DNA of 32,000 nt from the NCBI GenBank assembly GCA_047651235.1, contig CP178758.1, positions 3,706,688 to 3,738,687 of the forward strand, in the 5' to 3' direction. The stretch is from Candidatus Electrothrix yaqonensis (lineage in GTDB: Bacteria; Desulfobacterota; Desulfobulbia; Desulfobulbales; Desulfobulbaceae). Made by a program: the position numbers and the translations under genes. The notes beneath the pieces are model-generated. The model saw only the letters and a program-made list of their open reading frames with translations, searched no databases and was not told the DNA's origin. This document shows, piece by piece, positions 9,496-21,739 of this stretch; the first letter of the stretch is position 1, and every line of letters begins with the position of its first letter.

Positions 9496-10463
9496 TAAGT
9501 CTATAACTGATGTTACGCATTGGCGCCAAATATATTATCTTGGAGGCAATGAATACAAAATATATTGACCTCTACACGGATTATCTTGCCGTGACGTTCG
9601 GATACGCCACGGCAACCGGCCTGTCGGACATGCTGCGGATGGCGAGTATACCTCTATGGATTTATGGAAACAGGTCAGACCGGTCATCCGCGAAGTGGAA
9701 GCCGATGACGGTGTGCTGATATTCGACGATACCATTCAGGAAAAACCGTGAATGGATGAAAATGACCTTATCTGTCGGCATTCTGATCACTGTAAATGGA
9801 AAAACGCCAAAAGAATCAGTCTACTGAACTGCGTTTATCATGTCGATTGGCTTGAGCTGCTGCGTTCAATGGTTAATACTTGTATGAGGAACCGACTGCG
9901 GTTTACCCGGATTCTGTCTGATTCATGGTTCAACTCTGTTGAAAATATGGAGCATATCGAACTCGGACATAACAAGGAGTTCATCGGTGCATTGAAAAAC
10001 AACCGACTCGTCGCGTTGACTGAGGAAGACCGTAAAAACAAAAACCGTATAGATCAGATCAAATGGTCAGAACAGGAAGCCGTTATCGGTTGGCTGAAAG
10101 GACTGAAGTTTCCAGTTCGTCTCGCCCGGCAGATCTTTACAAACAAAGACGGAAGCACCGGCATCCTGTATCTCGCCTGCAGCCAAGTTTACGACAATCT
10201 ATAGAAAACGATGGAAAGTCGAGGTGTTTCACAAGTCATTGAAGTCGAATGCGGCGTTATCCAAGTCTCCTGCGCGCCGTGTAAATGCGCAGGGCAATCA
10301 TATTTTTGCCTCCATTGTTGCTGTGTTTAAAATGGAATGCCTAAAAATCAAAACAAAGATGAACCACTTTGCCCTGAAGTCGAAGCTCTATCTGAAAGCC
10401 GTCCGTTCAGCATTTGATGAGCTTCAGAAACTCAGGACTGCGTAACATCAGTTGTTAACTTAT
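9496..10463 (+). mobile_element. Decayed IS4/IS701-superfamily insertion sequence with a frameshifted, internally deleted DDE transposase
   Basis: Terminal IRs match 22/25: ataagtctataactgatgttacgca (9496-9520) against the reverse complement of tgcgtaacatcagttgttaacttat (10439-10463). Transposase fragments occur in three frames: LIFDDTIQEKP, DENDLICRHSDHC, ILSDSWFNSVENMEHI, and RKRWKVEVFHKSLKSNAALSKSP (a YxxRWxIExxFKxLK-type motif). Confidence 0.7.
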
Positions 10464-11738
10464 CGATCTTTTTTTCTGTCATTTACAGCACAGGTTTTCT
10501 CCGCAGGAGCTTCTTTGCTGCTTAATGTTATGATCGCTCGAATGTTGGGTGTCTCAGGAACAGGTCTTTTTTTTCAAGGTATGATGATTGCCGGTATCGG
10601 CTCTGCTGTTGCCCGCTTGGGGATGGATAATGTTATCACACGCTTTATAAGCGTTTATTTTTCCGAGAATGATTTTGACAACATGGTACGTGTTGTACGT
10701 ACCGGGCTGAAAGCAGGCTGTGCAGTGACTTTTGTTCTTTTCTTTCTGTATGCAACGGTCAGCCTGCTGACCCCTTTTTCTTCTTTTCAGTTTATGGTAT
10801 TATCCATACCATTTCTGACTTTTTCAGCTATATATTCCTCGGCGTTGCGCGGCATCGGAAAAGCAGTATTGTTTACCCTTATACAGAGAGGTTTCGTCCC
10901 GACTGTCTTTATCCTGCTCTTACTTGTTCATAATGTTTTACAGCAGGAAATGATTCCGGAAAAAAGTTTTCAGCTTTATTTCGTGGCATCTTTGTTGGTC
11001 GCAATATTTTCCTGGGCTCTATGGAGATTTTTTTTATCAGGTCGCGATTCAAATTCAGCAAAGCATTTCAGCTCAGATCATTTTACCTGGACTACCCTCT
11101 GGCAGGGAGGAGTTCAGCATACCTATGTGGTCTCTCTCCTGAACTTGGCTGTATTTCCTTGGGCAGGTATTTTCTTTCTCGGAATATTTTCCAGTCCTGA
11201 ACAAGTTGGTCTTTACGGAGTTGCTTGGCGTCTGGCAACTCAATTATCTTTAATCCTGATCGCTTCAGGAAACGTAGCTGCACCTGAATTTGCGAAACTC
11301 CATGCACAGGGGAAAATACGGCAACTTGAAGCAGCTATCCGAAAAACCTCACTGACTGTTCTGCTTGTTTCTGCCGTTTCGGCCTGTATAATGATAGGTG
11401 CCCACCGGGAAATCCTTGCTTTGTTCGGAAAAAAATTCATAACAGCTTCTGGTGTTTTTTTTATCATATTGACAGGACACATAATCCGCTCCTCTGCAGG
11501 GAATACAGGAATGCTGCTCATGATGACAGGACACGAGCGGGAGGTGAAAAAAACGCTTCTTATCTCGTCATCAGTTCTGATTTGCTGTACCATTCTGCTT
11601 AGTTGGATATGGGGGGCGCCGGGAGCAGCTTGGGCCAATACGATTGCTTTGAGTGTACAGAGCGGTTGTCTTATCTACTATTGTATTGCAATTCTTCATG
11701 TAACCCCGCTTCCTTATTGGAAATATATATCTCCTTAA
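10452..11738 (+). CDS. Polysaccharide biosynthesis flippase (Wzx / MOP superfamily). The native 5' end is displaced by the IS.
   Basis: A 428-aa polytopic membrane protein. The N-terminal ...LLLNVMIARMLGVSGTGLFF and the late ...LLMMTGHEREV... region are typical of Wzx/PST-family proteins. The only upstream in-frame start is TTG 10452, which lies inside the IS terminal repeat. The first ATG codon is codon 27. Confidence 0.7.
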   Translation: MLTYRSFFLSFTAQVFSAGASLLLNVMIARMLGVSGTGLFFQGMMIAGIGSAVARLGMDNVITRFISVYFSENDFDNMVRVVRTGLKAGCAVTFVLFFLYATVSLLTPFSSFQFMVLSIPFLTFSAIYSSALRGIGKAVLFTLIQRGFVPTVFILLLLVHNVLQQEMIPEKSFQLYFVASLLVAIFSWALWRFFLSGRDSNSAKHFSSDHFTWTTLWQGGVQHTYVVSLLNLAVFPWAGIFFLGIFSSPEQVGLYGVAWRLATQLSLILIASGNVAAPEFAKLHAQGKIRQLEAAIRKTSLTVLLVSAVSACIMIGAHREILALFGKKFITASGVFFIILTGHIIRSSAGNTGMLLMMTGHEREVKKTLLISSSVLICCTILLSWIWGAPGAAWANTIALSVQSGCLIYYCIAILHVTPLPYWKYISP

Positions 11739-11761
11739 AAAGATTCTGCTCACAGGATTAT

Positions 11762-12502
11762 ATGTACCTCTCAGATACTACAGATATAATAATTAAACCG
11801 GTACGTTTATTTGAAAAAGAATTTACATTTATCCTTGATAAGGAAATTAAAGATATTGTAAAAAATATTAACGATAAAACATTATGGATCGTCACCTTTA
11901 ATTTTCAAATGCTTGGGAAATGTAGTGAGGATGAAGGATATTTATCGTTACTCTCGTCAGCTGATCTTTTTACATGTGATGGAGCTCCTATTGCGTGGAT
12001 TGTTACTTTTCTCACGAGATATAAAGTTCCTCGTATTACAGGAATACAAATAGTAGAATATATAATAAAGAATACAACCAAATCTTTTGGTATTATTGGA
12101 GGAAGATCACATACAGCAGCACTTTCCAATATGAAAGTGGATTTTAGTCGAGTTCTATTTATTTTTAACGGAGATATTAATCACAATTCTAATAAGACAA
12201 TAAGTAATTTCGCAGATTCTATCAAAGCAACAAAACCAGAATATGTTTTTGTTGCACTCGGAATAGAAAAACAGGATATTGTATGTAAATATTTAAAAGA
12301 AACTGGAGTTAAATCGATTTATATAGGAGTTGGAGGTACGTTTGAAATATTAGCTGGTGAGCAAAAAAGAGCTCCAGAATGGATTTCAATTATAGGAATA
12401 GAATGGTTCTTCAGATTTATTCAAGAACCAAGAAGATTATTTAAACGATATTTTATAGATTACCCTAGAGGCATTTATTTTTATCTAAAAAATCGTCTTT
12501 AA
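11762..12502 (+). CDS. WecB/TagA/CpsF-family glycosyltransferase (GT26)
   Basis: About 246 aa from ATG 11762. Motifs are DLFTCDGAPIAW, FVALGIEKQDIV, and APEWISIIGIEWFFRFIQEPRRLFKRYF (the family C-terminal signature). The longer ORF from 11603 overlaps the wzx end and is GC-shifted. Confidence 0.75.
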   Translation: MYLSDTTDIIIKPVRLFEKEFTFILDKEIKDIVKNINDKTLWIVTFNFQMLGKCSEDEGYLSLLSSADLFTCDGAPIAWIVTFLTRYKVPRITGIQIVEYIIKNTTKSFGIIGGRSHTAALSNMKVDFSRVLFIFNGDINHNSNKTISNFADSIKATKPEYVFVALGIEKQDIVCKYLKETGVKSIYIGVGGTFEILAGEQKRAPEWISIIGIEWFFRFIQEPRRLFKRYFIDYPRGIYFYLKNRL

Positions 12503-13684
12503 CGATTGGATATATTTTTCCTCTCTATCTTTTTGCCAAGCGACGGCTTCCTTAAAAGCAGCATCATTTCTTGTATTAGTATGATGAATAACAGAAGATA
12601 TCTTTTTCGCAAAACTTATATGATCTTTAACTACTGCAACAAAGCTTGGAGGAGAATTTATCCCCCGAAAGGCTTGTTCTGTTGCAACTATAGGTATAGC
12701 ATAATTAACAGATTCTACAGATTTGATCTGTACTCCTGATCCAAGAATTGAAGGGATTGCAATGCATTTAGATGATAAAATAAATTCATCAATATTTTCA
12801 ATATAACCATGATAAGTAATATGACCACCGCAAGGTATAATTTTTTCTGCACCTTTCCCAGCAATACCTATTTTTATATTAGGCAATAGCGGTACAACTC
12901 GGTTAAAAAACCATATAAGACTCTTTCTGTTTGGCTCCCAAAGCCAATTTCCAAATAAACATATATCTCTTACAATAATAGATTGATAGTAAAATTTCTC
13001 TGATAGAATCTTCTTTTTTACAAATGGAGACAAAGTAATCGTATTTTTTTTATCGATATTTTTATATGTTTCTATAAACAGATGTCGATCTTTTTCACTT
13101 ATAAAAGTCGCTCCGTTATTAGGTGCAAAATTCATTCTCTTTTCATATTCCTTTATTTTCTTTGATTCTCTCAAGTAAAGTTTTTTTATCACCCCTTTTT
13201 TAAAATATGCCAAATCAGAATAAACAGATGGTTCGAAATTATGATTAATCAAATAGTATTTTCTATGCATTTTATTTTTCTTTATACACCTTTCTTGGAG
13301 AGTCCAGAGCATTTGCCCGTGATCAACAATCATTAAGTCATATTCATTTAATGATAATAGAGAATCAAGTATTTTTTTATATGATATAGAAGTATATTTT
13401 GCCATACTAAATGGAATGTCTTTTACAATCGATTTTACCACCCATGATAACGAGATAAGAAAAATATTTTTTGTTTCGATATTACGATAACCAGCTATGT
13501 AGATTCTAACATTTTTTTCTTCTCTAAAAGAAAAATCATTCTTTTTTTCTTTTCTTCTATATCCGACCAAATCTATAGAATACCCTTCTTTCGCAAGGCT
13601 TTTGACGAGTGTCGATGTATAAATCTCTCCGCCTGTAGAAAGCTGAGGGATAACAGTTGTTAGCATGATAATTTTTTTCATCAT
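12485..13684 (-). CDS. Glycosyltransferase, GT4-like (GT-B fold)
   Basis: The N-terminal KIIMLTTVIPQLSTGGEIYTSTLVKSLAKEGYSIDLV and the C-terminal PSILGSGVQIKSVESVNYAIPIVAT are typical GT4/GT1 motifs. Its 3' end overlaps the convergent GT26 gene by 18 nt. Confidence 0.7.
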   Translation of the reverse strand: MMKKIIMLTTVIPQLSTGGEIYTSTLVKSLAKEGYSIDLVGYRRKEKKNDFSFREEKNVRIYIAGYRNIETKNIFLISLSWVVKSIVKDIPFSMAKYTSISYKKILDSLLSLNEYDLMIVDHGQMLWTLQERCIKKNKMHRKYYLINHNFEPSVYSDLAYFKKGVIKKLYLRESKKIKEYEKRMNFAPNNGATFISEKDRHLFIETYKNIDKKNTITLSPFVKKKILSEKFYYQSIIVRDICLFGNWLWEPNRKSLIWFFNRVVPLLPNIKIGIAGKGAEKIIPCGGHITYHGYIENIDEFILSSKCIAIPSILGSGVQIKSVESVNYAIPIVATEQAFRGINSPPSFVAVVKDHISFAKKISSVIHHTNTRNDAAFKEAVAWQKDREEKYIQSLKTIF

Positions 13685-13685
13685 T

Positions 13686-14517
13686 ATTAGGAGTTACGCA
13701 GTTGGCAAAAATCTGGTAACATAGCTGCATGAACAAAGCTAAGATAACAGATTACGATTACATAGATTTTCTGATAGGGACGCAGAAAGTCTATAGCTGT
13801 ACGGAAGCCGGGCGTGTTCAACCCGATGAAACAGGCGGTCCGTCGCATGATGCCTTCACCCGGCAGCTGCATCGGCTTTTTCCGACTACAGACCGGCTCT
13901 GGTCGGAAGTTAGGGATCATGTTGAGTTCTTTCAGAACAATTTGATATTGTTCATCTTAAAGGTTACGGCATGATCAAGGTATTCAAGAAAGTCACAAAA
14001 GACGATGACTTTGAATACCGGGCCACTAATGACCTGATGCGGCTTAAATATGCTGAGATCAGTTGGATGATTGAAACATATCATCGCGGCATTAAACAGT
14101 TCTGCGGCATTGAACGCTGTCAGGCCTGTTCAGAGAGAGCGTAGCGAAATCATATCGAGATGGCTTTACGGGCCTTTCTTCGGCTTGAATATCATTGCTT
14201 TGCTAAAGGAATCTCTTGGTTTAAGGCAAAAATTTCTGACTGTTACGGATTTAGGGGAGGGGAGCAGCCAGCCCTAAAAACCTTTAAATGTCTGTCAAAC
14301 CTGAAAAATCAGTGCGTTATCTTCAGCCAGTCTGGTCTATTGAACCCCTCAAGCTTTAATCCTAATCGGTTGATTTAAGGATGTTCTATCGGGGGTCCCC
14401 TAAATCCGTAACAGTCAGAAAAATTTCAATTGTCAGAGATGCTGTCAGAGCATATTTGGCAAAGCCAATTTATACCCTCGAACCTATCAATCTTTATGCA
14501 ACTGCGTAACTCCTAAT
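13686..14517 (+). mobile_element. Decayed, internally deleted IS4/IS701-superfamily element related to the one at 9496-10463
   Basis: Perfect 19-bp terminal IR: attaggagttacgcagttg (13686-13704) against the reverse complement of 14499-14517. Transposase fragments include YDYIDFLIGTQKVYSCTEAGRVQPDE...SHDAFTRQLHRL and IETYHRGIKQFCGIERCQA. The element abuts the GT4 start codon (13682-13684). Confidence 0.7.
14236..14418. mobile_element. 183-bp MITE-like element nested inside the IS remnant, flanked by an 8-bp target-site duplication
   Basis: Terminal IRs are ctgactgttacggatttagggg (from 14236) and its reverse complement ending at 14418. AAAAATTT occurs immediately on both sides, at 14228-14235 and 14419-14426. 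Confidence 0.75.
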
Positions 14518-14613
14518 TATATTAGAGTTATTCCTGAATAACTTCCGAGTCCCCAAAAACAGCCACTTGAAAAACGAAAAATGGGCCTGTAATCTTATAC
14601 AGGAACAACTCTA

Positions 14614-15312
14614 TTATAAAATGAATATCTTTTTTAAAAATTTAACATAATGTTTATTGGAGAACAACATATAGGATTCACCTTGATTTAACATCTGTTT
14701 TTTGTATGTAGATGCATCAATGTTCATTATATTTTTATCTATATCAAAAAAATCTTCAATTTTTTTAAAATTACCTTCTATCAAGTCTTCATATTTAGTG
14801 TTTATATAATCTCTATTATGAATCTTAGCTTTTAACTTAAATAAGTTAATTCTGTAAAAACTTCTAATTTTGAAAAGGATGTATTCAGATAATACAAAAT
14901 TGATAGTAGTATTGTTTGAATCTCCTTGAAAAGAAGACCAAATATTGCTTTTCAAAGCTCTTCTATGTGATGCATACTGAGCTATAGAATTTTTTCGTGT
15001 AATAAGAATTATTTTATAATTCTTATTTGATATAATATAATCCATAACTTTTCTATTATGATTGAAAAATAGCTTGAAACCAAAAAAAGACGCATTTGTA
15101 TTATGACACGTTTGTTCCTCTACGGCCTCAAGAAAAGAAATAGGGCTTAAATCTCTCTGATACAGAGTATAAGGTATATTAAAGATATCGCTAAAGATTT
15201 TCTTTGGATGGAATAACTCCGCATGACAGTATATTTCTGGTATAGAATTAAGTATGCTCATCAGCATATTTGAACCTGTTCTGGCTTCACTTATAATTAC
15301 AAATTTTTTCAT
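14614..15312 (-). CDS. Sulfotransferase (Stf0-like, PAPS-dependent)
   Basis: N-terminal 5'-PSB-type loop: FVIISEARTGSNMLMSIL. Later motif: ILITRKNSIAQYASHRRA (the Stf0-type R..N...Q..S motif). About 232 aa and AT-rich. Confidence 0.65.
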   Translation of the reverse strand: MKKFVIISEARTGSNMLMSILNSIPEIYCHAELFHPKKIFSDIFNIPYTLYQRDLSPISFLEAVEEQTCHNTNASFFGFKLFFNHNRKVMDYIISNKNYKIILITRKNSIAQYASHRRALKSNIWSSFQGDSNNTTINFVLSEYILFKIRSFYRINLFKLKAKIHNRDYINTKYEDLIEGNFKKIEDFFDIDKNIMNIDASTYKKQMLNQGESYMLFSNKHYVKFLKKIFIL

Positions 15313-15314
15313 TA

Positions 15315-16181
15315 TTAATGAGATGATAAGAAATCAGTTATTATGTTTAAGTATCTATCACAATTCATTTTTTCCGCATATCCTTTTACATCAGGATACC
15401 AACTAAGCCTTTCGTCTTCTATATTAAAGTCTTCTTTGAATATAGAATTATAATTATTGAACGGAATGCCGATTTTGTTCATATACAATGAAAATTCTTC
15501 TATAAATTCTTTTTTCTTCTGAAAGAAAAATACTTTTCCTCCATAAGAATTACATTGTTCAATAGAATATGCATTACATATTAACCAGATAAAAATGAAA
15601 GACATAAAGGCACTTTCTCTTTCAATGCAAGAAAAATCTTTTTTTACATGAAAATCAAGTATTTCTTTTAATTGATCGTTTATATTAAAAAGATTTTTCT
15701 TAAAAAGAAAAAATTTAGCTCTCTCTAAAAAAGGAAAAACCCCACTTTTTATCTTGAAATTAATCATAGAATTCCATACACTTACAGGATTCCTAATTAT
15801 ATGTATAGGTATAAAATTTTTATCTTTAGCGAAATCTTTAAGGATAAAATGACATCTATTTGTCTGGTAACCTATAAAATCAGGTTGCTCAGATAAAATA
15901 TTTGTCAATAACGAAAAAAAACTATAATTAGGAAAGAAACTGTCCCCACGATGACACATGAATATATTTATGATTTCATCAGATAAAAAACTATAATCTT
16001 CCCATAATTTAATACCATGGATTGGATGAGCATCTTTTGAAGAATGTAAGATTTTATCGCATATATCCTGATGGCAAGGCTCATAAAGAAATAATCTATT
16101 CTTATTAGAATGCTTAATCAAATGCCATATAATAGTCGTTCCAGATCTGAAGTATCCATTTATAATAATTTTTTTTTTCAT
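15315..16181 (-). CDS. Sulfotransferase family protein (PAPS-dependent)
   Basis: 5'-PSB loop: IIINGYFRSGTTIIWHLI. 3'-PB-like motif: IHIIRNPVSVWNS. It sits 2 nt upstream of the other sulfotransferase on the same strand. Confidence 0.65.
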   Translation of the reverse strand: MKKKIIINGYFRSGTTIIWHLIKHSNKNRLFLYEPCHQDICDKILHSSKDAHPIHGIKLWEDYSFLSDEIINIFMCHRGDSFFPNYSFFSLLTNILSEQPDFIGYQTNRCHFILKDFAKDKNFIPIHIIRNPVSVWNSMINFKIKSGVFPFLERAKFFLFKKNLFNINDQLKEILDFHVKKDFSCIERESAFMSFIFIWLICNAYSIEQCNSYGGKVFFFQKKKEFIEEFSLYMNKIGIPFNNYNSIFKEDFNIEDERLSWYPDVKGYAEKMNCDRYLNIITDFLSSH

Positions 16182-16295
16182 ATAGACTCTCTATTTTATC
16201 TTTTTTTTATTTTTGTAAAATTTCAACAGATCATACTATAAAGGCTGTACTGACAGTAGAAAAAAAGTATTGTTCATCAATCTAAACGTAACCAC

Positions 16296-16865
16296 TCACA
16301 GGGTACTCCGCTCATGCAGGCTGAGAATCCGATTTCTGTCCTCTGAAACAGCAACGCACAGCATCGGTAAGAACCTCGAAAGTCGATCTGCCCCGGAGCC
16401 TGCATGTCTGCCGCAGTGAAAGAATCCGTTCAACCCGCTGGTTTCTCTTGTCGCTGTTCGTGCCCTGAGAACGTTTCCGCCACAGCACATCGAAGCGGAT
16501 CATCCGTTCCGCCGCCGCCCATTTCCCGCAGACGGCAGGTTCCGGATCACCGCGCTCCGCCAGTCCGCCCGGCGGATCAGGTCTGCTGCTTTTCGGCCTA
16601 TTTCTTACACCCTGTAGCCCCGTCGCTGACCAACCAGGATACCGTTCCAGCCTTCCGATCAGCTGTTCAAACGCCTCTGCGGAGTGTTTCGGATGAATCA
16701 TGAAAAAAGCGGTGCACCGGTTCGCCGTCACCCATAATCAGTTGAGTTTCCTGCCGGTTCTCCGGGTTGTTTCGTCTGCATGCCCGATGCCTCCGCTTCG
16801 TGCGGCATCCCGTATGCTTTCATAATGCGGTTCGACAGCCGCCGAAGCCCAGTCAATTCAGCTTA
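16296..16865 (-). pseudogene. IS66-family-like transposase remnant (5'-truncated and frameshifted)
   Basis: Minus-strand translation across frames gives ...GIGHADETTRRTGRKLNWLWVTANRCTAFFMIHP.... It continues ...WRKRSQGTNSDKRNQRVERILSLRQTCRLRGRSTFEVLTDAV. These resemble the IS66 DDE-core and C-terminal motifs (haDET...WLWV; R.nslf..s..G......i.sl..Tc.l.g). It forms a GC-rich block inside the AT-rich locus. Confidence 0.5.
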
Positions 16866-16870
16866 TACCG

Positions 16871-17557
16871 TCAGGAACCACTGTTTTCTGCCGCTACCCT
16901 GTGAGGGGTTACATCCGAACTAACCGCAATAAATGTTTCCGGCATAAAAGTAACCCGACAGGCTATGATTGTAGAGTTAGGGAAATATGCAGATAATTGT
17001 CGTTTAGACAAGAGGTTAAATTTATTAAATTCACCTGCAAACCACATATATTTTTTTTGTATATGATTAAAACGAACAATGCTTCCCACCTTCAGATAAG
17101 CATTCCCCGGCAGCCAACTCACAAAGGGCAGGCGCAAATGGAATTCAAAAGGATACCAACGGTTAGGCGTAGTAATAAAATATTTTTTTGCCACTCTCAT
17201 CACTTCGGAAGCGAATTTTCTTTGGGCTTCAGCCCCTCCTACATGTTCAATTACCGCATTACTGTATGCAACATCAAAATATTGATCAGGCCACGGCAAA
17301 TTAAGTGCATCTGCAGTTTGTGCGTTTACGCCCGGATATTTTTTTCTTATATTTTTTATATGTTGGGGGGAAAGATTTACTGCTGTAACATTTTTTTTCC
17401 AAGGGTAAATGTCAAGAAACTGTATCCCTTCTGAATATTTGGTTCCAACCTGAGATCCAATATCAATTACACGAGTCGTTTCGTCAGGTCGAATCCTTGA
17501 AAAAAACAACTTGTTTTTTTTCTTTCTACTGATTTCAGAAAACTTTGTAAAAAGCAT
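16871..17557 (-). CDS. Class I SAM-dependent methyltransferase
   Basis: Motif I-like VIDIGSQVG, FDVAYSNAVIEHVGG (Methyltransf_11-type post-motif II/III), and about 228 aa. Confidence 0.65.
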   Translation of the reverse strand: MLFTKFSEISRKKKNKLFFSRIRPDETTRVIDIGSQVGTKYSEGIQFLDIYPWKKNVTAVNLSPQHIKNIRKKYPGVNAQTADALNLPWPDQYFDVAYSNAVIEHVGGAEAQRKFASEVMRVAKKYFITTPNRWYPFEFHLRLPFVSWLPGNAYLKVGSIVRFNHIQKKYMWFAGEFNKFNLLSKRQLSAYFPNSTIIACRVTFMPETFIAVSSDVTPHRVAAENSGS

Positions 17558-17574
17558 CGTTTTGTCTATTTCTC

Positions 17575-17681
17575 TTAACCTACTGATTTACGCACACGAA
17601 TAAAAAGTCAAAGAGTACGACACAGCGAAAACGTGAAGTCTGCCGATTCTACGTTTTGGGTGCGTAACATCAGTTAACTTA
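17575..17681. mobile_element. About 100-bp miniature remnant carrying both ends of the TTACGCA-ended IS family
   Basis: Left end ctgatttacgcac (17583-) and right end gtgcgtaacatcagttaactta (17660-17681). The right end is nearly identical to the right end of the IS at 10439-10463 (tgcgtaacatcagttgttaactta). Confidence 0.55.
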
Positions 17682-17712
17682 GAGGCTGTTGACATTTAAC
17701 CTAACCATTAAG

Positions 17713-18984
17713 CTACTTAGAAATTGTGCGAGCTCTACTATAGGAAAGCTCATTTTCGGCAGGCGATGATTTAGAATTTTTAGCTGAATAAAAAAATAAA
17801 AGTATAAAAGGTGATAGACCAACAAAATTGATTGCAGATTCACTCATCATTCCGGTACAAAGTGTAGAAAATAAATATACAGCAAGAACGTAATGCTCAG
17901 TTTTATTTTCTTGATTCGAAAAACGAGTGAAAAAAATATACATCATTACAAACATATAATAAAACATCCCTATTAGGCCTGTTTGGCTAATTAAAGCTCC
18001 GAAATAACTCTCTCCAATCTCCTCCCTGTTTAACGTAAGTTCATCAAGTTTTGCAAAGTTACCTGCATTACCGATACCTATTCCAAATGGATCTTCTAAT
18101 ATCAAATGAACCGCTGAAACAAGGCCGCTAGCATGTTTTGATGCGCTGTAATAATTACCATACGATGCTGTATTAATCAATATATATGATGAAATTACAA
18201 CGAAAAGGATAGAAAAGAATGCAATGACTCTTGGACGAACTTTTTCAGAAAAATTAATATATACCCCCAATATAACAGCAAGAACACCACCCTTACTAAA
18301 GGTTAGTAATAGAGATAGCAAAAAAACTATTGATATAGTATATTTTTTTTGAAAGAAAAAATATAGGGTTGGATATGCAAGTATATGCGCTATAATAGTT
18401 GGCTGGGCAATAAAAAACGAAACAGCCCTTCTTTGCACACCAGACCCTATTAACAAAAAATCCCAAGTATACCAACCCCTAGGAACCCCATTACTTCCAA
18501 GCCAGTTCGCCAATCCTTTACTATGTACAAACTCATCATATCTAAGCCAATACCAAAAAGCATTTCCATTATAATGAAAATATATGATCTCCGCATAATT
18601 ACTAATCATCAAGGCAAAAAGAAAAAAAATTAAATAATTATGAGCTAATCTGTAGTTAAAGTTACCATTTACCTTATAAAAAGAAGCTGCTATAATAGAA
18701 GATATTATAATAAGCTGCCTTAATGAAAGAAGAGAATGCATTCCATACGACATCCAGTTTACACAACAATACAAAGTGTATACTATAGACAATAAATACA
18801 GATATTGATTTTTTTTAACCTTGAAAAACTTTACAGCTCCTGTTAAGATCAGAATGAATGCTATCCCCTCTTTCAAAGAAAGAGCTACTTGTGTATAATC
18901 AGAAAGAAAAACATTAACTATTGGTGCTGCTATATTTTGCAAGAAACATGCTGCTGTAAATACAATAAATGCGAATAGCTGCAT
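17713..18984 (-). CDS. O-antigen polymerase/ligase-like polytopic membrane protein (Wzy-like)
   Basis: 423 aa, with at least 10 hydrophobic segments, very AT-rich, and located among GT, Wzx and modification genes. There is no soluble domain. The assignment rests on topology and context. Confidence 0.5.
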   Translation of the reverse strand: MQLFAFIVFTAACFLQNIAAPIVNVFLSDYTQVALSLKEGIAFILILTGAVKFFKVKKNQYLYLLSIVYTLYCCVNWMSYGMHSLLSLRQLIIISSIIAASFYKVNGNFNYRLAHNYLIFFLFALMISNYAEIIYFHYNGNAFWYWLRYDEFVHSKGLANWLGSNGVPRGWYTWDFLLIGSGVQRRAVSFFIAQPTIIAHILAYPTLYFFFQKKYTISIVFLLSLLLTFSKGGVLAVILGVYINFSEKVRPRVIAFFSILFVVISSYILINTASYGNYYSASKHASGLVSAVHLILEDPFGIGIGNAGNFAKLDELTLNREEIGESYFGALISQTGLIGMFYYMFVMMYIFFTRFSNQENKTEHYVLAVYLFSTLCTGMMSESAINFVGLSPFILLFFYSAKNSKSSPAENELSYSRARTISK

Positions 18985-19081
18985 AACTTAAAGAATGTAA
19001 GCGTTGTTATTTCGATCTCTCAGACGGATTTTGTTTATCGATACTAATCGATTATCTGAATTTTTCTATATAATATATTTT

Positions 19082-20152
19082 ATGCTCTCTGCTATAGTAA
19101 AAAGAAAGTCCCCCCCCCCCCCTTATGTTCTCTTGCTTTTGACTGCTGCTTTGAGCATATTACTCTATGTATCATTATGTCGCAGCAACATGATTGTTAC
19201 AGCAGACAGGAAGGCTGACAAAAGGGCTCAAAATATATTAGAGTGGTTATATATATTGCCAACTAAAAAAAACAACAAAATACTATCAGGCCAACATGGG
19301 TGGAATAACGCAGCACTCATATACAAGGAAACCGGCTCTTGGCCAGCCATACTTGAGCTTAGTCTATGGAATGGAAAAGCAGGGTTTAACAGGTGGCCAC
19401 ATGCGAAAAAAAATCGTGAGGTTCTGAAAGAATATTGGGACAAAGGCGGATTAGTCAGCATCCATATGCCGGTACCTAATCCGATAAATAAAACTAGCCA
19501 GCTCGACAGAACAAATTTAAAAGATGATAAAATTTCCCTTTGTCTTCAGGAAGGTACCGTTTCAAACAATAATCTTAACCAATGGTTAACAGTTTTTACT
19601 TCTCATATTAAATGGTTGGAGTTAAACGGAGTTATTGTTTTCATTAGACCCTTACACGAAATGAACGGAAGCTGGTTTTGGTACGGAAAAAAAGATACAG
19701 ATATCTACATAAAACTATACAAATATCTGTTTGAGTTCTTGGTGATAAAATCAGACCTTCATAATATTTTATTCGTATACTCTCCAAGCCTGATGCACAA
19801 TAATTTAATCAACTACTACCCTGGGGATGAATATGTTGATATTGTAGGAGCGGATATATATCGAACTCCTCCTATCCGCAGTGAAGATATGGAAGCGTAC
19901 AACCTATTGTCTTCCTTGGGAAAGCCATTTGCAATTACAGAGCTGGGTTGGAATTCACAAAAGAATACGCCAGCCCCCAACACGCAAAATGCATATAAAG
20001 ATATTGTCTTATCAATAAAAGAAACGGTACCTCGGACTGTTTGGTGGAATTCTTGGACGGATAGCCGAAACCCTGCTTTGCAGAAAGAAATAAAAAAATT
20101 GTATAGAGACCCTTGGGTAATAACACGAGATGAAGTCAACTGGAAAAAATAA
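19082..20152 (+). CDS. Glycoside hydrolase family 26 (beta-mannanase-like) with an N-terminal signal anchor
   Basis: VFIRPLHEMNGSWFWYG is the GH26 acid/base Glu motif, and PFAITELGW is the nucleophile Glu context. From ATG 19082 the N-terminus reads MLSAIVKRKSPPPPYVLLLLTAALSILLYVSLC (signal-like). The ORF track starts at TTG 19004. Confidence 0.75.
   Translation: MLSAIVKRKSPPPPYVLLLLTAALSILLYVSLCRSNMIVTADRKADKRAQNILEWLYILPTKKNNKILSGQHGWNNAALIYKETGSWPAILELSLWNGKAGFNRWPHAKKNREVLKEYWDKGGLVSIHMPVPNPINKTSQLDRTNLKDDKISLCLQEGTVSNNNLNQWLTVFTSHIKWLELNGVIVFIRPLHEMNGSWFWYGKKDTDIYIKLYKYLFEFLVIKSDLHNILFVYSPSLMHNNLINYYPGDEYVDIVGADIYRTPPIRSEDMEAYNLLSSLGKPFAITELGWNSQKNTPAPNTQNAYKDIVLSIKETVPRTVWWNSWTDSRNPALQKEIKKLYRDPWVITRDEVNWKK
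19110..19122 (+). repeat. Homopolymeric C13 tract inside the 5' end of the GH26 gene
   Basis: aag tcc ccc ccc ccc cct tat has 13 consecutive C encoding SPPPP, in an otherwise AT-rich gene. Confidence 0.95.
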
Positions 20153-20199
20153 GTTGTACCTGTTTTCCGAGCTAACTTCATCTTCTTCCGCTGCTACGG

Positions 20200-20553
20200 T
20201 TAAAGAGGTTGGATCGATATCCTTTCAACAATGGAGTTCCATATAAGTGCAGTCATTTCCACATAAACTTCTCGATCTAAACTCATAGCTGTTAACGCTG
20301 TTGCGTAACCAGAATCTCCAATATCAACATGAAGAAGAAACTGCTTTACCCCGACATATTCTGTGTCGCTGTTACATTCAATTTGTACCATATATGCACT
20401 TGCATTTCCACTTGCTAACGTTGGAACTACACCTGTACCGACAACCTTTCCACGGGAACATTTATTGGCAGCTAACGCCGGTGTAAACACACAGGCCATA
20501 ATCGCAATAGCTGCTACAATCACCGAACCTACTTTCAATACAACACGTTTCAT
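20200..20553 (-). CDS. Small secreted protein of unknown function (117 aa)
   Basis: GGAGG lies 7 nt upstream of ATG 20553 on the minus strand. Signal peptide: MKRVVLKVGSVIVAAIAIMACVFTPALAANK. It lies 59 nt downstream of the STN-repeat gene on the same strand. Confidence 0.6.
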   Translation of the reverse strand: MKRVVLKVGSVIVAAIAIMACVFTPALAANKCSRGKVVGTGVVPTLASGNASAYMVQIECNSDTEYVGVKQFLLHVDIGDSGYATALTAMSLDREVYVEMTALIWNSIVERISIQPL

Positions 20554-20612
20554 TTTTTCGCCTCCTTTGAAGGGGATGTATGTACTTAAAAAAACAGATA
20601 AATATTGCATTT

Positions 20613-21596
20613 TTATTTGCCATCCAGAATTTCGTTATCATCGGCAAGCCGTTTTTTATAATCTTTGTCCTGCCGGACATGCATTGCTCTGAGCTCACCC
20701 CGTGTCATACCGCCATCCAGAATTTCGTTATCATCGGCAAGCCGTTTTTTATAATCTTTGTCCTGCCGGACATGCATTGCTCTGAGCTCACCCCGTGTCA
20801 TACCGCCATCCAGAATTTCGTTATCATCGGCAAGCCGTTTTTTATAATCTTTGTCCTGCCGGACATGCATTGCTCTGAGCTCACCCCGTGTCATACCGCC
20901 ATCCAGAATTTCGTTATCATCGGCAAGCCGTTTTTTATAATCTTTGTCCTGCCGGACATGCATTGCTCTGAGCTCACCCCGTGTCATACCGCCATCCAGA
21001 ATTTCGTTATCATCGGCAAGCCGTTTTTTATAATCTTTGTCCTGCCGGACATGCATTGCTCTGAGCTCACCCCGTGTCATACCGCCATCCAGAATTTCGT
21101 TATCATCGGCTATACGTTCTCTATATTCTTTATACTGCTGTCTCTGCATTTTCTTCACTTCCTCCAATGTCATCCCCTCCCCCTCGGCGTCCTGCAGAGA
21201 GGCAGAATCAACCTGGTCATCAGGCAGGGCAGCACCAGCCCGAACAAATTTTTTCGCGCCAAAGGTCTTGACGATTATTTTCTTTTCACTCCTGAAGACC
21301 TGAATACTTTTATTATCTTCACTGAACAGCCGGTTAATCGCTTCGGACAGTTTGACGTCCTTATAACTGCCGCTCACCTTCTTGTCCGCCAGTTTCTGAT
21401 CATAGAAAAGAACAACACCTGCCTGACGGGAGATATCCCCTAACACCTTGTTCAGGCTTTCATCCTGAAAACGAACAGTCACGGGGACATCCAACCAGTC
21501 TGATTTATTTTCCGCTGCCGACAGACAAACAGTAGGTGCAAACAGACAGCTAATAATCAACATTATGATAATTTTATATTTTTTCAGCTTCAGCAT
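20613..21596 (-). CDS. Secreted STN-domain (secretin/TonB N-terminal short domain-like) protein with C-terminal 31-aa tandem repeats
   Basis: From ATG 21596: MLKLKKYKIIIMLIISCLFAPTVCLSAAE (signal). Next comes VTVRFQDESLNKVLGDISRQAGVVLFYDQKLADKKVSGSYKDVKLSEAINRLF...IQVFRSEKKIIVK (STN-like). Then five identical GGMTRGELRAMHVRQDKDYKKRLADDNEILD units run to the stop codon. Confidence 0.65.
   Translation of the reverse strand: MLKLKKYKIIIMLIISCLFAPTVCLSAAENKSDWLDVPVTVRFQDESLNKVLGDISRQAGVVLFYDQKLADKKVSGSYKDVKLSEAINRLFSEDNKSIQVFRSEKKIIVKTFGAKKFVRAGAALPDDQVDSASLQDAEGEGMTLEEVKKMQRQQYKEYRERIADDNEILDGGMTRGELRAMHVRQDKDYKKRLADDNEILDGGMTRGELRAMHVRQDKDYKKRLADDNEILDGGMTRGELRAMHVRQDKDYKKRLADDNEILDGGMTRGELRAMHVRQDKDYKKRLADDNEILDGGMTRGELRAMHVRQDKDYKKRLADDNEILDGK
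20620..21112 (-). repeat. Perfect 93-bp tandem repeat: 5 full copies plus a partial sixth, and a degenerate ancestral copy upstream in the gene
   Basis: The unit ccatccagaatttcgttatcatcggcaagccg... starts at 20620, 20713, 20806, 20899, 20992 and 21085. The copies are identical by eye. The sixth diverges after tcatcggc. Confidence 0.95.
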
Positions 21597-21739
21597 ACCT
21601 GTATGTCTATCTGCTATAATTACCATTGAATATCCACAGCCATTTATTTTCATTAAACTATATCTCAAGATTGGAGTCAAGAAAAAAACGCGGTTTCAGC
21701 CGTTCTTCTCTTTATTGTTTTTCATGGAATAACATCGGA

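What the first reader, a model, noticed from the sequence alone, without database searches (positions are those of the whole stretch)
19082..19125. C13 homopolymer at codons 10-14 of the GH26 gene: likely slipped-strand phase-variation switch
**Seen.** There are 13 consecutive C (19110-19122) in a strongly AT-rich gene. They lie just after the basic n-region (KRK) of the predicted signal anchor and encode SPPPP.

**Established.** Homopolymeric tracts of this length in the 5' coding region are classic contingency-locus switches in surface-glycan genes (for example in Neisseria, Haemophilus and Campylobacter).

**Inference.** A change of one C would frameshift the hydrolase. That would toggle a glycan-trimming or chain-length activity of this locus ON and OFF.
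Basis: partly seen in the sequence, partly recalled or inferred. Interest (0 to 1): 0.62.

Follow-up and report, generated by a model that had tools for sequence, protein, structure and literature searches.

The report
Slippery poly-C tract gating secreted hydrolase
A run of 13 Cs sits inside the export signal of a sugar-cutting enzyme in a cable bacterium's surface-polysaccharide island, and two public read sets disagree on its length (13 vs 14), so it is probably a random on/off switch of a known type, though not yet proven.

Summary
C13 (19110-19122) is the longest G/C homopolymer in the 3.74-Mb genome, which is Ca. Electrothrix yaqonensis YB6, a cable bacterium. It forms codons 10-14 (TCC CCC CCC CCC CCT, SPPPP) of a GH26 hydrolase. 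The gene lies in a low-GC, strain-specific Wzx/Wzy polysaccharide island.

The upstream ATG (19082) is the likely start. All homologues carry a signal peptide there, and Met37, the database's start, lies 5 residues before the catalytic domain.

Lengths 10, 13 and 16 give the 355-357-aa exported enzyme. All other lengths stop after 18-46 codons and leave no in-frame start upstream of the tract.

CCC is the rarest proline codon in the island, and the Pro4 is not conserved.

Key new evidence: Logan contigs from two runs of the same culture match the genome exactly, except that one has C13 and the other C14. The C14 run also fails to assemble through G10 and T15 tracts, so a platform artefact is not excluded.

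Verdict: a probable slipped-strand contingency switch (about 0.58). It is a new member of a known kind; the closest precedent is Gardnerella nanH3. A link to YB6's unexplained sheaths is speculative.

The parts
19110..19122 (+). C13 homopolymer. It forms codons 10-14 (TCC CCC CCC CCC CCT = S-P-P-P-P), between the n-region and h-region of the signal peptide.
   Evidence: It reads C14 in the Logan contig of SRR31704082 and C13 in that of SRR31704081.
19082..20152 (+). Full-length GH26 glycoside hydrolase gene (356 aa) in the ON frame.
   Evidence: Pfam PF02156, E 6e-49. Best solved relatives are Bacillus GH26 beta-mannanases 2qha, 3cbw and 2whk (E about 1e-41), aligned from residue 44. The RPLHEMNG (E193) and AITELG (E287) motifs are invariant in the alignment.
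19082..19189 (+). Signal-peptide or signal-anchor coding segment (residues 1-36): n-region KRK, Pro4, h-region YVLLLLTAALSILLYVSL, then C-R-S-N.
   Evidence: It aligns with the signal peptides of all homologues. Maximum Kyte-Doolittle mean over 15 residues is 2.69, matched by 0.23% of open island windows.
19190..19192 (+). Met37 ATG. This is the start chosen by the database gene calls (320-aa product), and it would give a signal-less enzyme.
   Evidence: P0001 is 320 aa. The same 320-aa call was made on both the C13 and the C14 Logan contigs.
18985..19081 (.). 97-bp divergent intergenic region between the Wzy-like gene and GH26. There is no Shine-Dalgarno sequence before either gene. A TATAAT lies at 19069-19074.
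   Evidence: Direct reading. Promoter-like sites are listed.
17713..18984 (-). 423-aa polytopic membrane protein, a candidate Wzy-type polymerase, transcribed divergently from GH26.
   Evidence: ORF. No Pfam or NCBIfam hit even at E 5. The assignment rests on position and hydrophobicity only.
16871..17557 (-). SAM-dependent methyltransferase.
   Evidence: PF08241, E 1e-12.
14614..16181 (-). Two adjacent genes with weak sulfotransferase similarity.
   Evidence: PF13469 E 0.003 and PF00685 E 0.01, both below the curated cut-offs.
10452..13684 (.). Wzx-type flippase, WecG/TagA/CpsF (GT26) glycosyltransferase, and GT1/GT4-type glycosyltransferase.
   Evidence: PF01943, PF03808 and PF13692.

Best explanation
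The C13 run is a hypermutable slipped-strand tract inside the signal-peptide-coding part of an accessory, secreted GH26 hydrolase. The gene lies in a horizontally acquired Wzx/Wzy polysaccharide island of Ca. Electrothrix yaqonensis YB6. Gain or loss of one C during replication moves ATG 19082 out of frame with the catalytic domain. Lengths of 3n+1 (10, 13, 16) make the export-competent enzyme (ON). Other lengths make an 18-46-aa peptide (OFF). In the OFF state only leaky internal initiation at Met37 could occur, and that product would lack an export signal. A clonal filament population would therefore contain heritable, reversible subpopulations with and without the periplasmic or extracellular hydrolase, and so with differently processed surface polysaccharide. 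Shown here: the tract, the frame logic, the start-codon argument, the intact catalytic motifs, the glycan-locus context, and a C13/C14 discordance between two read-set assemblies. Inferred: that switching occurs in vivo at a useful rate, that it is reversible, and that it is maintained by selection.
For: The tract is the longest G/C run in the genome. Codon use is atypical: three consecutive CCC codons where CCC makes up 4.5% of Pro codons in the island. The Pro4 is absent from all homologues, so the protein does not require it. There is no alternative in-frame start upstream in the OFF states. Signal peptides are conserved in the homologues, and Met37 abuts the catalytic domain. The catalytic Glu motifs are intact. 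The locus encodes Wzx, GT26, GT4, a methyltransferase and weak sulfotransferases. The closest homologue (44% identity) also sits in a polysaccharide cluster with a sulfotransferase. The Logan contig of SRR31704082 is identical to the window over 2,950 bp apart from one extra C in the tract (C14). The SRR31704081 contig is identical over 5,936 bp with C13. In the C14 contig, 13 other homopolymers of 7 or more bases are unchanged, and a G8 is unchanged in another contig of the same run. A documented precedent has the same architecture: the Gardnerella nanH3 poly-C of 8-14 next to the signal peptide of a secreted glycoside hydrolase. Other G/C tracts of 8-9 in this genome lie upstream of secreted surface-protein genes.
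Against: The two runs probably represent one DNA source sequenced by Nanopore and Illumina, so C13 versus C14 may be a platform or stutter artefact. In the C14 run, contigs stop 5 nt before a G10 tract and inside a T15 tract, which shows that the run handles long homopolymers poorly. No second strain or metagenome allele exists in the searched collections. MutS and MutL are intact, so slippage is not boosted by a repair defect. G9 tracts also occur in housekeeping genes such as the aconitase-family gene. The island is riddled with IS remnants (earlier notes), which is compatible with decay rather than regulation.
Confidence: 0.58

Rival explanations
1. Incidental liability. The tract is real and intrinsically unstable, but it is a neutral or mildly harmful by-product in a recently acquired island battered by IS elements. 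The GH26 gene drifts between intact and frameshifted states on its way to becoming a pseudogene, and the variation has no adaptive role.
For: The island has low GC, contains an IS66 fragment and other IS remnants, and was not found in 40 relatives by DNA or 60 family genomes by protein. The island's genes lack Shine-Dalgarno sequences. The genome tolerates G9 tracts in housekeeping genes. Only one tract of this length exists, so there is no large set of phase-variable genes.
Against: The gene is otherwise intact, with invariant catalytic residues and a well-formed signal peptide. A perfect 13-mer built from the island's rarest Pro codon is hard to retain without either recent expansion or selection. 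The placement, in the 5' coding region of a secreted enzyme in a glycan locus, is the classic contingency arrangement.
Confidence: 0.24
2. Technical discordance only. The tract has one stable length in the culture, either 13 or 14, and simply encodes a short Pro spacer or a fixed frameshift. On this view the C13/C14 difference comes from basecalling, library stutter or low-coverage assembly.
For: The genome was built from Nanopore R10.4.1 reads with one round of Racon and one of Pilon. The C14 run gives only 1-3-kb contigs, which end at G10 and T15 and at three ordinary positions, indicating low effective coverage. The other run matches the assembly at every tract over 22 kb, as expected if it fed the consensus.
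Against: The only difference in 6,033 bp compared for the C14 run is at this tract. PCR stutter and Nanopore errors usually shorten long runs, whereas here the variant is one base longer (my own knowledge, not tested here). G/C runs of 13 nt are unstable in every bacterium where they have been measured (established knowledge; for 8-14 C).
Confidence: 0.1
3. Translation starts at Met37, as in the database gene call. The tract would then lie in the 5' untranslated or promoter region, where its length modulates transcription of GH26 or of the divergent Wzy-like gene. This would resemble the Bordetella fim promoter C-stretch.
For: Gene callers chose the 320-aa Met37 product on the genome and on both Logan contigs. 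Neither ATG has a Shine-Dalgarno sequence. A minus-strand promoter-like site (TTTACT-18-TATATT, 19101 to 19072) starts 8 nt from the tract.
Against: A product starting at Met37 would lack the export signal that every homologue has. The frame is open for 63 codons upstream of Met37 in AT-rich DNA and encodes a canonical n-region and h-region (p about 0.002). The tract lies outside the -35/-10 spacer of the minus-strand site, so length changes would not alter that spacing.
Confidence: 0.05

Closest known systems
Gardnerella piotii nanH3 sialidase poly-C tract (bioRxiv 10.1101/2020.09.16.300947)
   Same: Both have a poly-C run (8-14 C there, 13-14 here) in the first ~100 nt of the gene for a secreted glycoside hydrolase, next to the signal-peptide region. 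Only some lengths are in frame, and the others give peptides of about 40 aa. Automated annotation then reports a protein that lacks the signal peptide. The same happened here.
   Different: In nanH3 the tract follows the signal peptide. Here it lies inside it, between the n-region and the h-region. The enzyme there is a sialidase that acts on host glycans in a human-associated actinobacterium. Here it is a GH26 inside the organism's own polysaccharide-synthesis island, in an environmental filamentous Desulfobulbaceae. Length variation within colonies was shown experimentally there, but not here.
Neisseria opa genes (CTCTT repeats in the leader-peptide coding region), and poly-G/C tracts in Neisseria, Haemophilus and Campylobacter glycan genes such as pgtA
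   Same: In both, a repeat in the 5' coding or leader-peptide region sets the initiation codon in or out of frame, giving stochastic ON/OFF of a surface-related function (PMC2193922, PMC5953494).
   Different: Those organisms are host-adapted pathogens or commensals with tens of such loci. The targets there are adhesins or glycosyltransferases, not a hydrolase. Here there is a single long tract in a free-living sediment bacterium.
GH26 genes embedded in polysaccharide-synthesis clusters: Actinoplanes missouriensis wpsE in wps-1 (PMC13390465) and Paenibacillus polymyxa pepM (PMC7445874)
   Same: wps-1 combines GT26 (WecG/TagA/CpsF), GH26, a Wzx-like transporter, an O-antigen-ligase-like protein and predicted sulfation. 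This island has the same set of functions, as does the locus of the closest homologue.
   Different: No homopolymer switch is reported for those genes. Sequence identity to the window's GH26 was not measured. The authors of the wps-1 paper state that no Wzx/Wzy pathway involving a GH26 has been characterised, so the enzyme's role is unknown in all cases.
Bordetella fim2/fim3 promoter C-stretch
   Same: Both are poly-C runs of about 13-15 nt associated with a surface structure.
   Different: The Bordetella tract acts through promoter spacing. Here the tract is within the reading frame, and no promoter spacer contains it.

Membership tests
Slipped-strand (simple-sequence-repeat) contingency locus | A repeat tract long enough to be hypermutable (G/C homopolymer of about 8 or more) | tested here: met
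   C13 is the longest G/C run in the genome.
Slipped-strand (simple-sequence-repeat) contingency locus | The tract is placed so that a one-unit change switches expression (5' coding region or promoter spacer) | tested here: met
   Lengths 10, 13 and 16 give 355-357 aa. Other lengths give 18-46 aa. There is no upstream in-frame start in the OFF states.
Slipped-strand (simple-sequence-repeat) contingency locus | Tract length varies within or between clonally related populations | tested here: inconclusive
   Contigs from two runs of the same culture show C13 versus C14 and are otherwise identical. A platform artefact is not excluded.
Slipped-strand (simple-sequence-repeat) contingency locus | Reversible, heritable ON/OFF phenotype | not testable with these tools
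   This needs single-filament genotyping and a phenotype assay.
Slipped-strand (simple-sequence-repeat) contingency locus | The repeat is not required by the protein (not conserved, atypical codons) | tested here: met
   The Pro4 is absent from 12 homologues. CCC accounts for 3 of 66 Pro codons in the island.
Glycoside hydrolase family 26 (clan GH-A) | Match to the family profile above the curated threshold, over the whole domain | tested here: met
   PF02156 scores 167.4 bits against a cut-off of 20.2, covering profile positions 3-311 of 311.
Glycoside hydrolase family 26 (clan GH-A) | Two catalytic glutamates: acid/base in the H-E-x-N-G motif and nucleophile in the T-E-x-G motif | tested here: met
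   E193 (RPLHEMNG) and E287 (AITELG) are invariant in alignment A1 and align with the same motifs of B. subtilis mannanase 2qha. Assigning catalytic roles to these motifs rests on my knowledge of GH26.
Glycoside hydrolase family 26 (clan GH-A) | Demonstrated hydrolytic activity and substrate | not testable with these tools
   The substrate is unknown. The best solved relatives are beta-1,4-mannanases.
Sec-type N-terminal signal peptide or signal anchor | A positively charged n-region followed by a hydrophobic h-region of about 10-20 residues, at the position of the homologues' signal peptides | tested here: met
   KRK is followed by YVLLLLTAALSILLYVSL. The 15-residue Kyte-Doolittle mean is 2.69, and the segment aligns with the homologues' signal peptides.
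Sec-type N-terminal signal peptide or signal anchor | A recognisable cleavage site (AXA-type or lipobox) | tested here: inconclusive
   V-S-L-C/R-S-N is neither a canonical lipobox nor a clear AXA site. No signal-peptide predictor was available, so a cleaved peptide and an uncleaved anchor remain equally possible (direct reading).
Wzx/Wzy-dependent polysaccharide locus | Wzx flippase and glycosyltransferases present | tested here: met
   PF01943, PF03808 and PF13692.
Wzx/Wzy-dependent polysaccharide locus | Wzy polymerase recognisable | tested here: inconclusive
   The 423-aa polytopic protein has no family hit at E 5.
Wzx/Wzy-dependent polysaccharide locus | Priming phosphoglycosyl transferase and chain-length/export proteins (Wzz/Wzc/Wza) | not tested
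   None was seen among the ORFs scanned in the window. The rest of the genome was not searched for them.

The most novel reading that the evidence does not exclude
The GH26 switch governs the abundant extracellular sheaths that distinguish strain YB6. The strain-specific sulfotransferase/Wzx/Wzy island would make sheath or surface polysaccharide, and the exported GH26 would cut or release it. Stochastic ON/OFF filaments within one clonal culture would then explain why sheathed filaments and empty sheaths coexist. This would be the first contingency locus described in a multicellular, electrically conductive bacterium. It would also give a genetic handle on sheath biogenesis, which the describing paper lists as unknown.
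Probability: 0.1. Interest if true: 0.75.

Novelty: new member of a known kind. Interest (0 to 1): 0.42.

Why it matters
Phase variation by homopolymer slippage is textbook biology in host-adapted pathogens, but it is hardly documented in free-living sediment bacteria. I found no paper in the searched library that links it to cable bacteria. If real, it would mean that a 'clonal' cable-bacterium enrichment is genetically heterogeneous for a secreted polysaccharide hydrolase. That is relevant to phage or predator evasion, filament bundling, and possibly the unexplained sheaths of YB6.

There is also a practical point. The deposited and automated gene calls start at Met37 and so drop the signal peptide, which is the same annotation trap described for Gardnerella nanH3. 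The hypothesis can be tested immediately with reads that are already public (PRJNA1160179).

Tried and rejected
- **Read pile-up:** I did not use read laying, because its run ids must come from that tool. For pre-2026 runs it lays only Logan contigs, which I had already obtained through the look-up of encoding contigs.
- **Other alleles:** a scan of JGI metagenome contigs for the tract flanks with a 4-30-nt gap found nothing. There was no DNA match in 40 relatives, no protein match in 60 genomes of the family, and no protein above 48% identity in the 5.8-billion-cluster database. No second strain exists to compare.
- **Homologue tract:** the C10 upstream of a Fibrobacteres GH26 (L019) is intergenic, 68 nt before the ATG, in a GC-rich genome. 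I rejected it as non-homologous coincidence.
- **Failed look-ups:** two look-ups failed on wrong start guesses.
- **G/C controls in the C14 run:** G/C-tract controls of 9 or more bases could not be obtained in SRR31704082. The genes were found only in SRR31704081, or the contig ended at the tract.
- **Run technology:** I could not establish which run is Nanopore and which is Illumina. The accessions appear in no paper or held supplement, and the positions of contig ends were ambiguous.
- **Simulation:** a Markov simulation timed out. I replaced it with an empirical six-frame null.
- **Rejected readings:** I considered a lipoprotein reading (V-S-L-C is not a lipobox) and a TTG start at 19004, which lies only 20 nt from the divergent gene's start. 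Neither has support.
Full report
**1. The observation**

The window shows 13 consecutive C at 19110-19122. The first ATG of the frame is at 19082, and the frame runs to 20152. It encodes MLSAIVKRKSPPPPYVLLLLTAALSILLYVSLCRSNMIVTADRK.... The tract is read as TCC CCC CCC CCC CCT, which is codons 10-14, S-P-P-P-P.

The product is a GH26 glycoside hydrolase. Pfam PF02156 matches at E 6e-49 over profile positions 3-311 of 311. The gene has 38% GC in a genome of 51.3%, and it sits in a 26-38% GC island at about 12-20 kb of the window.

In the whole genome (3,738,687 bp, one contig) the G/C run-length counts are 385, 56, 12, 6, 1, 1, 0 and 1 for lengths 6 to 13. C13 is therefore the longest G/C run, and it lies beyond the tail of that distribution.

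**2. Organism and data**

The window's polyphosphate kinase is 84-87% identical to those of named Candidatus Electrothrix species. The genome's size (3,738,687 bp) and GC content (51.31%) match exactly the closed genome of Ca. Electrothrix yaqonensis strain YB6, GenBank CP178758.1 (PMC12093952).

That genome came from a 13th-generation clonal enrichment culture. It was sequenced with Nanopore R10.4.1 (149 Gb raw) and Illumina NovaSeq (7.7 Gb). It was assembled with Flye and polished with one round of Racon and one of Pilon. The data are under PRJNA1160179.

The paper stresses that YB6 forms abundant extracellular sheaths, both empty and filament-containing. Their composition and biosynthesis are unknown.

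**3. Which start codon?**

The database's own gene call (P0001) is 320 aa and starts at Met37 (ATG 19190), downstream of the tract. Automated calls on two Logan contigs made the same choice. Three lines of evidence argue against Met37:
- In an alignment with 12 homologues (31-45% identity), every one has an N-terminal hydrophobic signal peptide where residues 1-36 lie. Met37 is only 5 residues before the first invariant residue, D42.
- The solved Bacillus GH26 mannanases align from residue 44 onward.
- The upstream extension has a KRK n-region and an 18-residue h-region, with a Kyte-Doolittle mean of 2.69 over 15 residues. Among all six-frame 35-codon windows of the island, which include real membrane proteins, only 0.23% are both open and this hydrophobic.

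Neither ATG has a Shine-Dalgarno sequence, and neither does the divergent neighbouring gene, so ribosome-binding sites do not discriminate. I conclude that ATG 19082 is the functional start and that the tract is coding.

**4. Switch logic**

I modelled tract lengths 9-17:
- C10, C13 and C16 give the 355-357-aa protein.
- C9, C12 and C15 stop after 18-20 codons.
- C11, C14 and C17 stop after 44-46 codons.

In the out-of-frame states, the GH26 frame contains no start codon upstream of the tract. The first candidates are TTG codons inside the h-region, and then Met37. At best, a signal-less cytoplasmic enzyme could be made.

Both catalytic motifs, RPLHEMNG (E193) and AITELG (E287), are invariant in the alignment, so the ON product should be active.

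**5. Is the homopolymer needed by the protein?**

It is not. No homologue has a proline run at this position. CCC is also the rarest proline codon in the island (3 of 66) and accounts for 2 of 17 in the rest of the gene. Three consecutive CCC codons flanked by TCC and CCT are therefore not a codon-usage accident. The run is either a recent slippage expansion or is maintained as such.

Four prolines in a row should also make translation depend on EF-P. That is established knowledge and was not tested here.

**6. Genomic context**

The neighbours are as follows:
- a Wzx-type flippase, a WecG/TagA/CpsF (GT26) transferase and a GT1/GT4-type transferase;
- two genes with weak, sub-threshold sulfotransferase similarity;
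- a methyltransferase;
- an IS66 fragment;
- a 423-aa polytopic membrane protein with no family hit, transcribed divergently from GH26, with 97 bp between the two starts;
- a TviB-like UDP-sugar dehydrogenase further downstream.

The locus gave no DNA match in 40 relatives and no protein match in 60 genomes of the family, so it is accessory and probably horizontally acquired.

The closest homologue (44% identity) comes from an uncultured proteobacterial MAG. It also lies among methyltransferases, GDP-sugar epimerases, glycosyltransferases and a weak sulfotransferase. The Actinoplanes wps-1 cluster shows the same combination: GT26, GH26, a Wzx-like protein, a ligase-like protein and predicted sulfation. 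Its authors note that no Wzx/Wzy pathway with a GH26 has been characterised.

**7. Tract-length evidence**

No other allele exists in the metagenome, genome or protein collections searched.

Exact-protein look-ups did find the locus on Logan contigs of two runs, SRR31704081 and SRR31704082:
- The SRR31704081 contig is 100% identical to window 14713-20648 and has C13.
- The SRR31704082 contig is identical to window 17367-20315 except for one inserted base, which makes the tract C14. C14 is the OFF state, giving a 45-aa peptide.

Controls in SRR31704081 covered 22 kb in five contigs. All of it is identical to the genome, including G11, G10, G9, T15 and many shorter runs. The exact-protein match adds the C9 tract.

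Controls in SRR31704082 covered 6,033 bp in three contigs:
- The only difference from the genome is the C-tract.
- Thirteen other runs of 7 or more bases in the same contig, and a G8 elsewhere, are unchanged.
- One contig stops 5 nt before the G10 tract and another stops inside T15.
- Three of the six contig ends lie in ordinary sequence, which indicates low effective coverage.

The paper describes just one Nanopore and one Illumina dataset for this culture, so the two runs are probably those two datasets from one DNA source. I could not establish which is which.

The discordance therefore has two possible explanations. It could reflect a mixed C13/C14 population, which is what a contingency locus predicts. 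Or it could be platform-specific homopolymer error. It also means the true majority length in the culture, and so the ON or OFF state of the deposited allele, is uncertain by one base.

**8. Background mutability**

MutS and MutL are both present and intact, so a repair defect does not drive any instability.

The genome's other G/C runs of 8 or more are a mixed set:
- G11 lies between convergent genes.
- G10 lies about 136 nt upstream of a radical-SAM haem-related gene.
- One G9 encodes KKGGG in an aconitase-family gene.
- One G9 lies at the 5' end of a transposase gene.
- One C9 encodes SPPPS in a secreted FecR-domain protein.

Three further tracts lie upstream of genes for secreted repeat proteins:
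- T9G9 lies 113 nt upstream of an 848-aa protein that looks like a DUF11-type repeat protein by eye.
- A G8 directly after a TTGACA lies 498 nt upstream of a 986-aa protein with FG-GAP-like and thrombospondin-type-3-like repeats, again judged by eye.
- C9A9 lies 207 nt upstream of a signal-anchored TPR-like protein.

The strain may therefore have a small set of candidate contingency sites at surface-protein genes. I did not test this for enrichment.

**9. Comparison with known systems**

The closest documented case is Gardnerella nanH3. There, a poly-C of 8-14 lies about 100 nt into the gene for a secreted sialidase, immediately after the signal peptide. Its length varies within colonies, and frameshifted alleles are annotated without the signal peptide. 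The Neisseria opa genes carry their repeat inside the leader-peptide coding region.

The present case has the same mechanism and nearly the same architecture. What is new is the host, a multicellular sediment cable bacterium. The target is also new: a GH26 embedded in the organism's own polysaccharide-synthesis island. No paper in the searched library combines 'cable bacteria' with 'phase variation'.

**10. Verdict**

My probabilities are:
- a genuine slipped-strand ON/OFF switch of an exported GH26: 0.58;
- an incidental unstable tract in a decaying accessory gene: 0.24;
- a purely technical length discordance with a stable tract: 0.10;
- a Met37 start with a promoter or UTR effect: 0.05.

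The finding is a new member of a known kind and is of moderate interest. The speculative link to YB6's sheath phenotype (about 0.1) would raise the interest considerably. It can be tested with reads that are already public.

Noticed in passing
window 19190 (Met37); Logan loci L091-L094: The database gene call and the automated calls on both Logan contigs start GH26 at Met37 (320 aa), which drops the signal peptide. The start should probably be re-annotated to ATG 19082 (356 aa).
   Followed up: yes
window 20613-21680 (- strand): The secreted protein just downstream of GH26 ends in five identical copies of a 31-aa (93-bp) tandem repeat. The SRR31704081 Logan contig ends where this repeat array begins (about 20648). 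This is a second potentially length-variable feature beside the C-tract.
   Followed up: no
genome C1:556439-556456 (outside the window): A T9G9 pair fills a 17-nt spacer between TTGACT and TAGAGG. It lies 113 nt from the start of an 848-aa secreted protein on the minus strand that looks like a DUF11-type repeat protein by eye.
   Followed up: partly
genome C1:670950-670957 (outside the window): A G8 directly follows a TTGACA hexamer, with TACTCT 17 nt further on. It lies 498 nt upstream of a 986-aa secreted protein with FG-GAP-like and thrombospondin-type-3-like repeats, judged by eye.
   Followed up: partly
genome C1:1425098-1425106 (outside the window): A C9 on the coding strand encodes SPPPS about 40 residues into a secreted FecR-domain protein. 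This is a smaller copy of the arrangement seen in GH26. It is unchanged in the SRR31704081 contig.
   Followed up: partly
genome C1:2526644-2526661 (outside the window): A C9A9 pair lies 207 nt upstream of a 245-aa signal-anchored protein built from TPR-like repeats.
   Followed up: partly
genome C1:30336-30345 and 2540793-2540807: In run SRR31704082, contigs stop 5 nt before the G10 tract and inside the T15 tract. The cause could be low coverage or length heterogeneity at these tracts too.
   Followed up: partly
L019 5912-5921 (Fibrobacteres MAG): A C10 run lies 68 nt upstream of the start of a distant GH26 homologue. It is intergenic, in a GC-rich genome, and probably coincidental.
   Followed up: yes
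window 16312-16731 (- strand): An IS66-family transposase fragment lies inside the glycan island (NF033517 domain hit, E 5e-11, far below the full-length cut-off). This is consistent with a mosaic, horizontally assembled locus.
   Followed up: no
window 10452-20152; L082/L083; Actinoplanes wps-1 (PMC13390465): A module of GH26, GT26 or other glycosyltransferases, methyltransferase or sulfotransferase, and Wzx/Wzy-like genes recurs in a cable bacterium, an uncultured proteobacterial MAG and an actinomycete. It may represent an uncharacterised class of pathway for sulfated or methylated polysaccharide that includes a dedicated GH26.
   Followed up: partly
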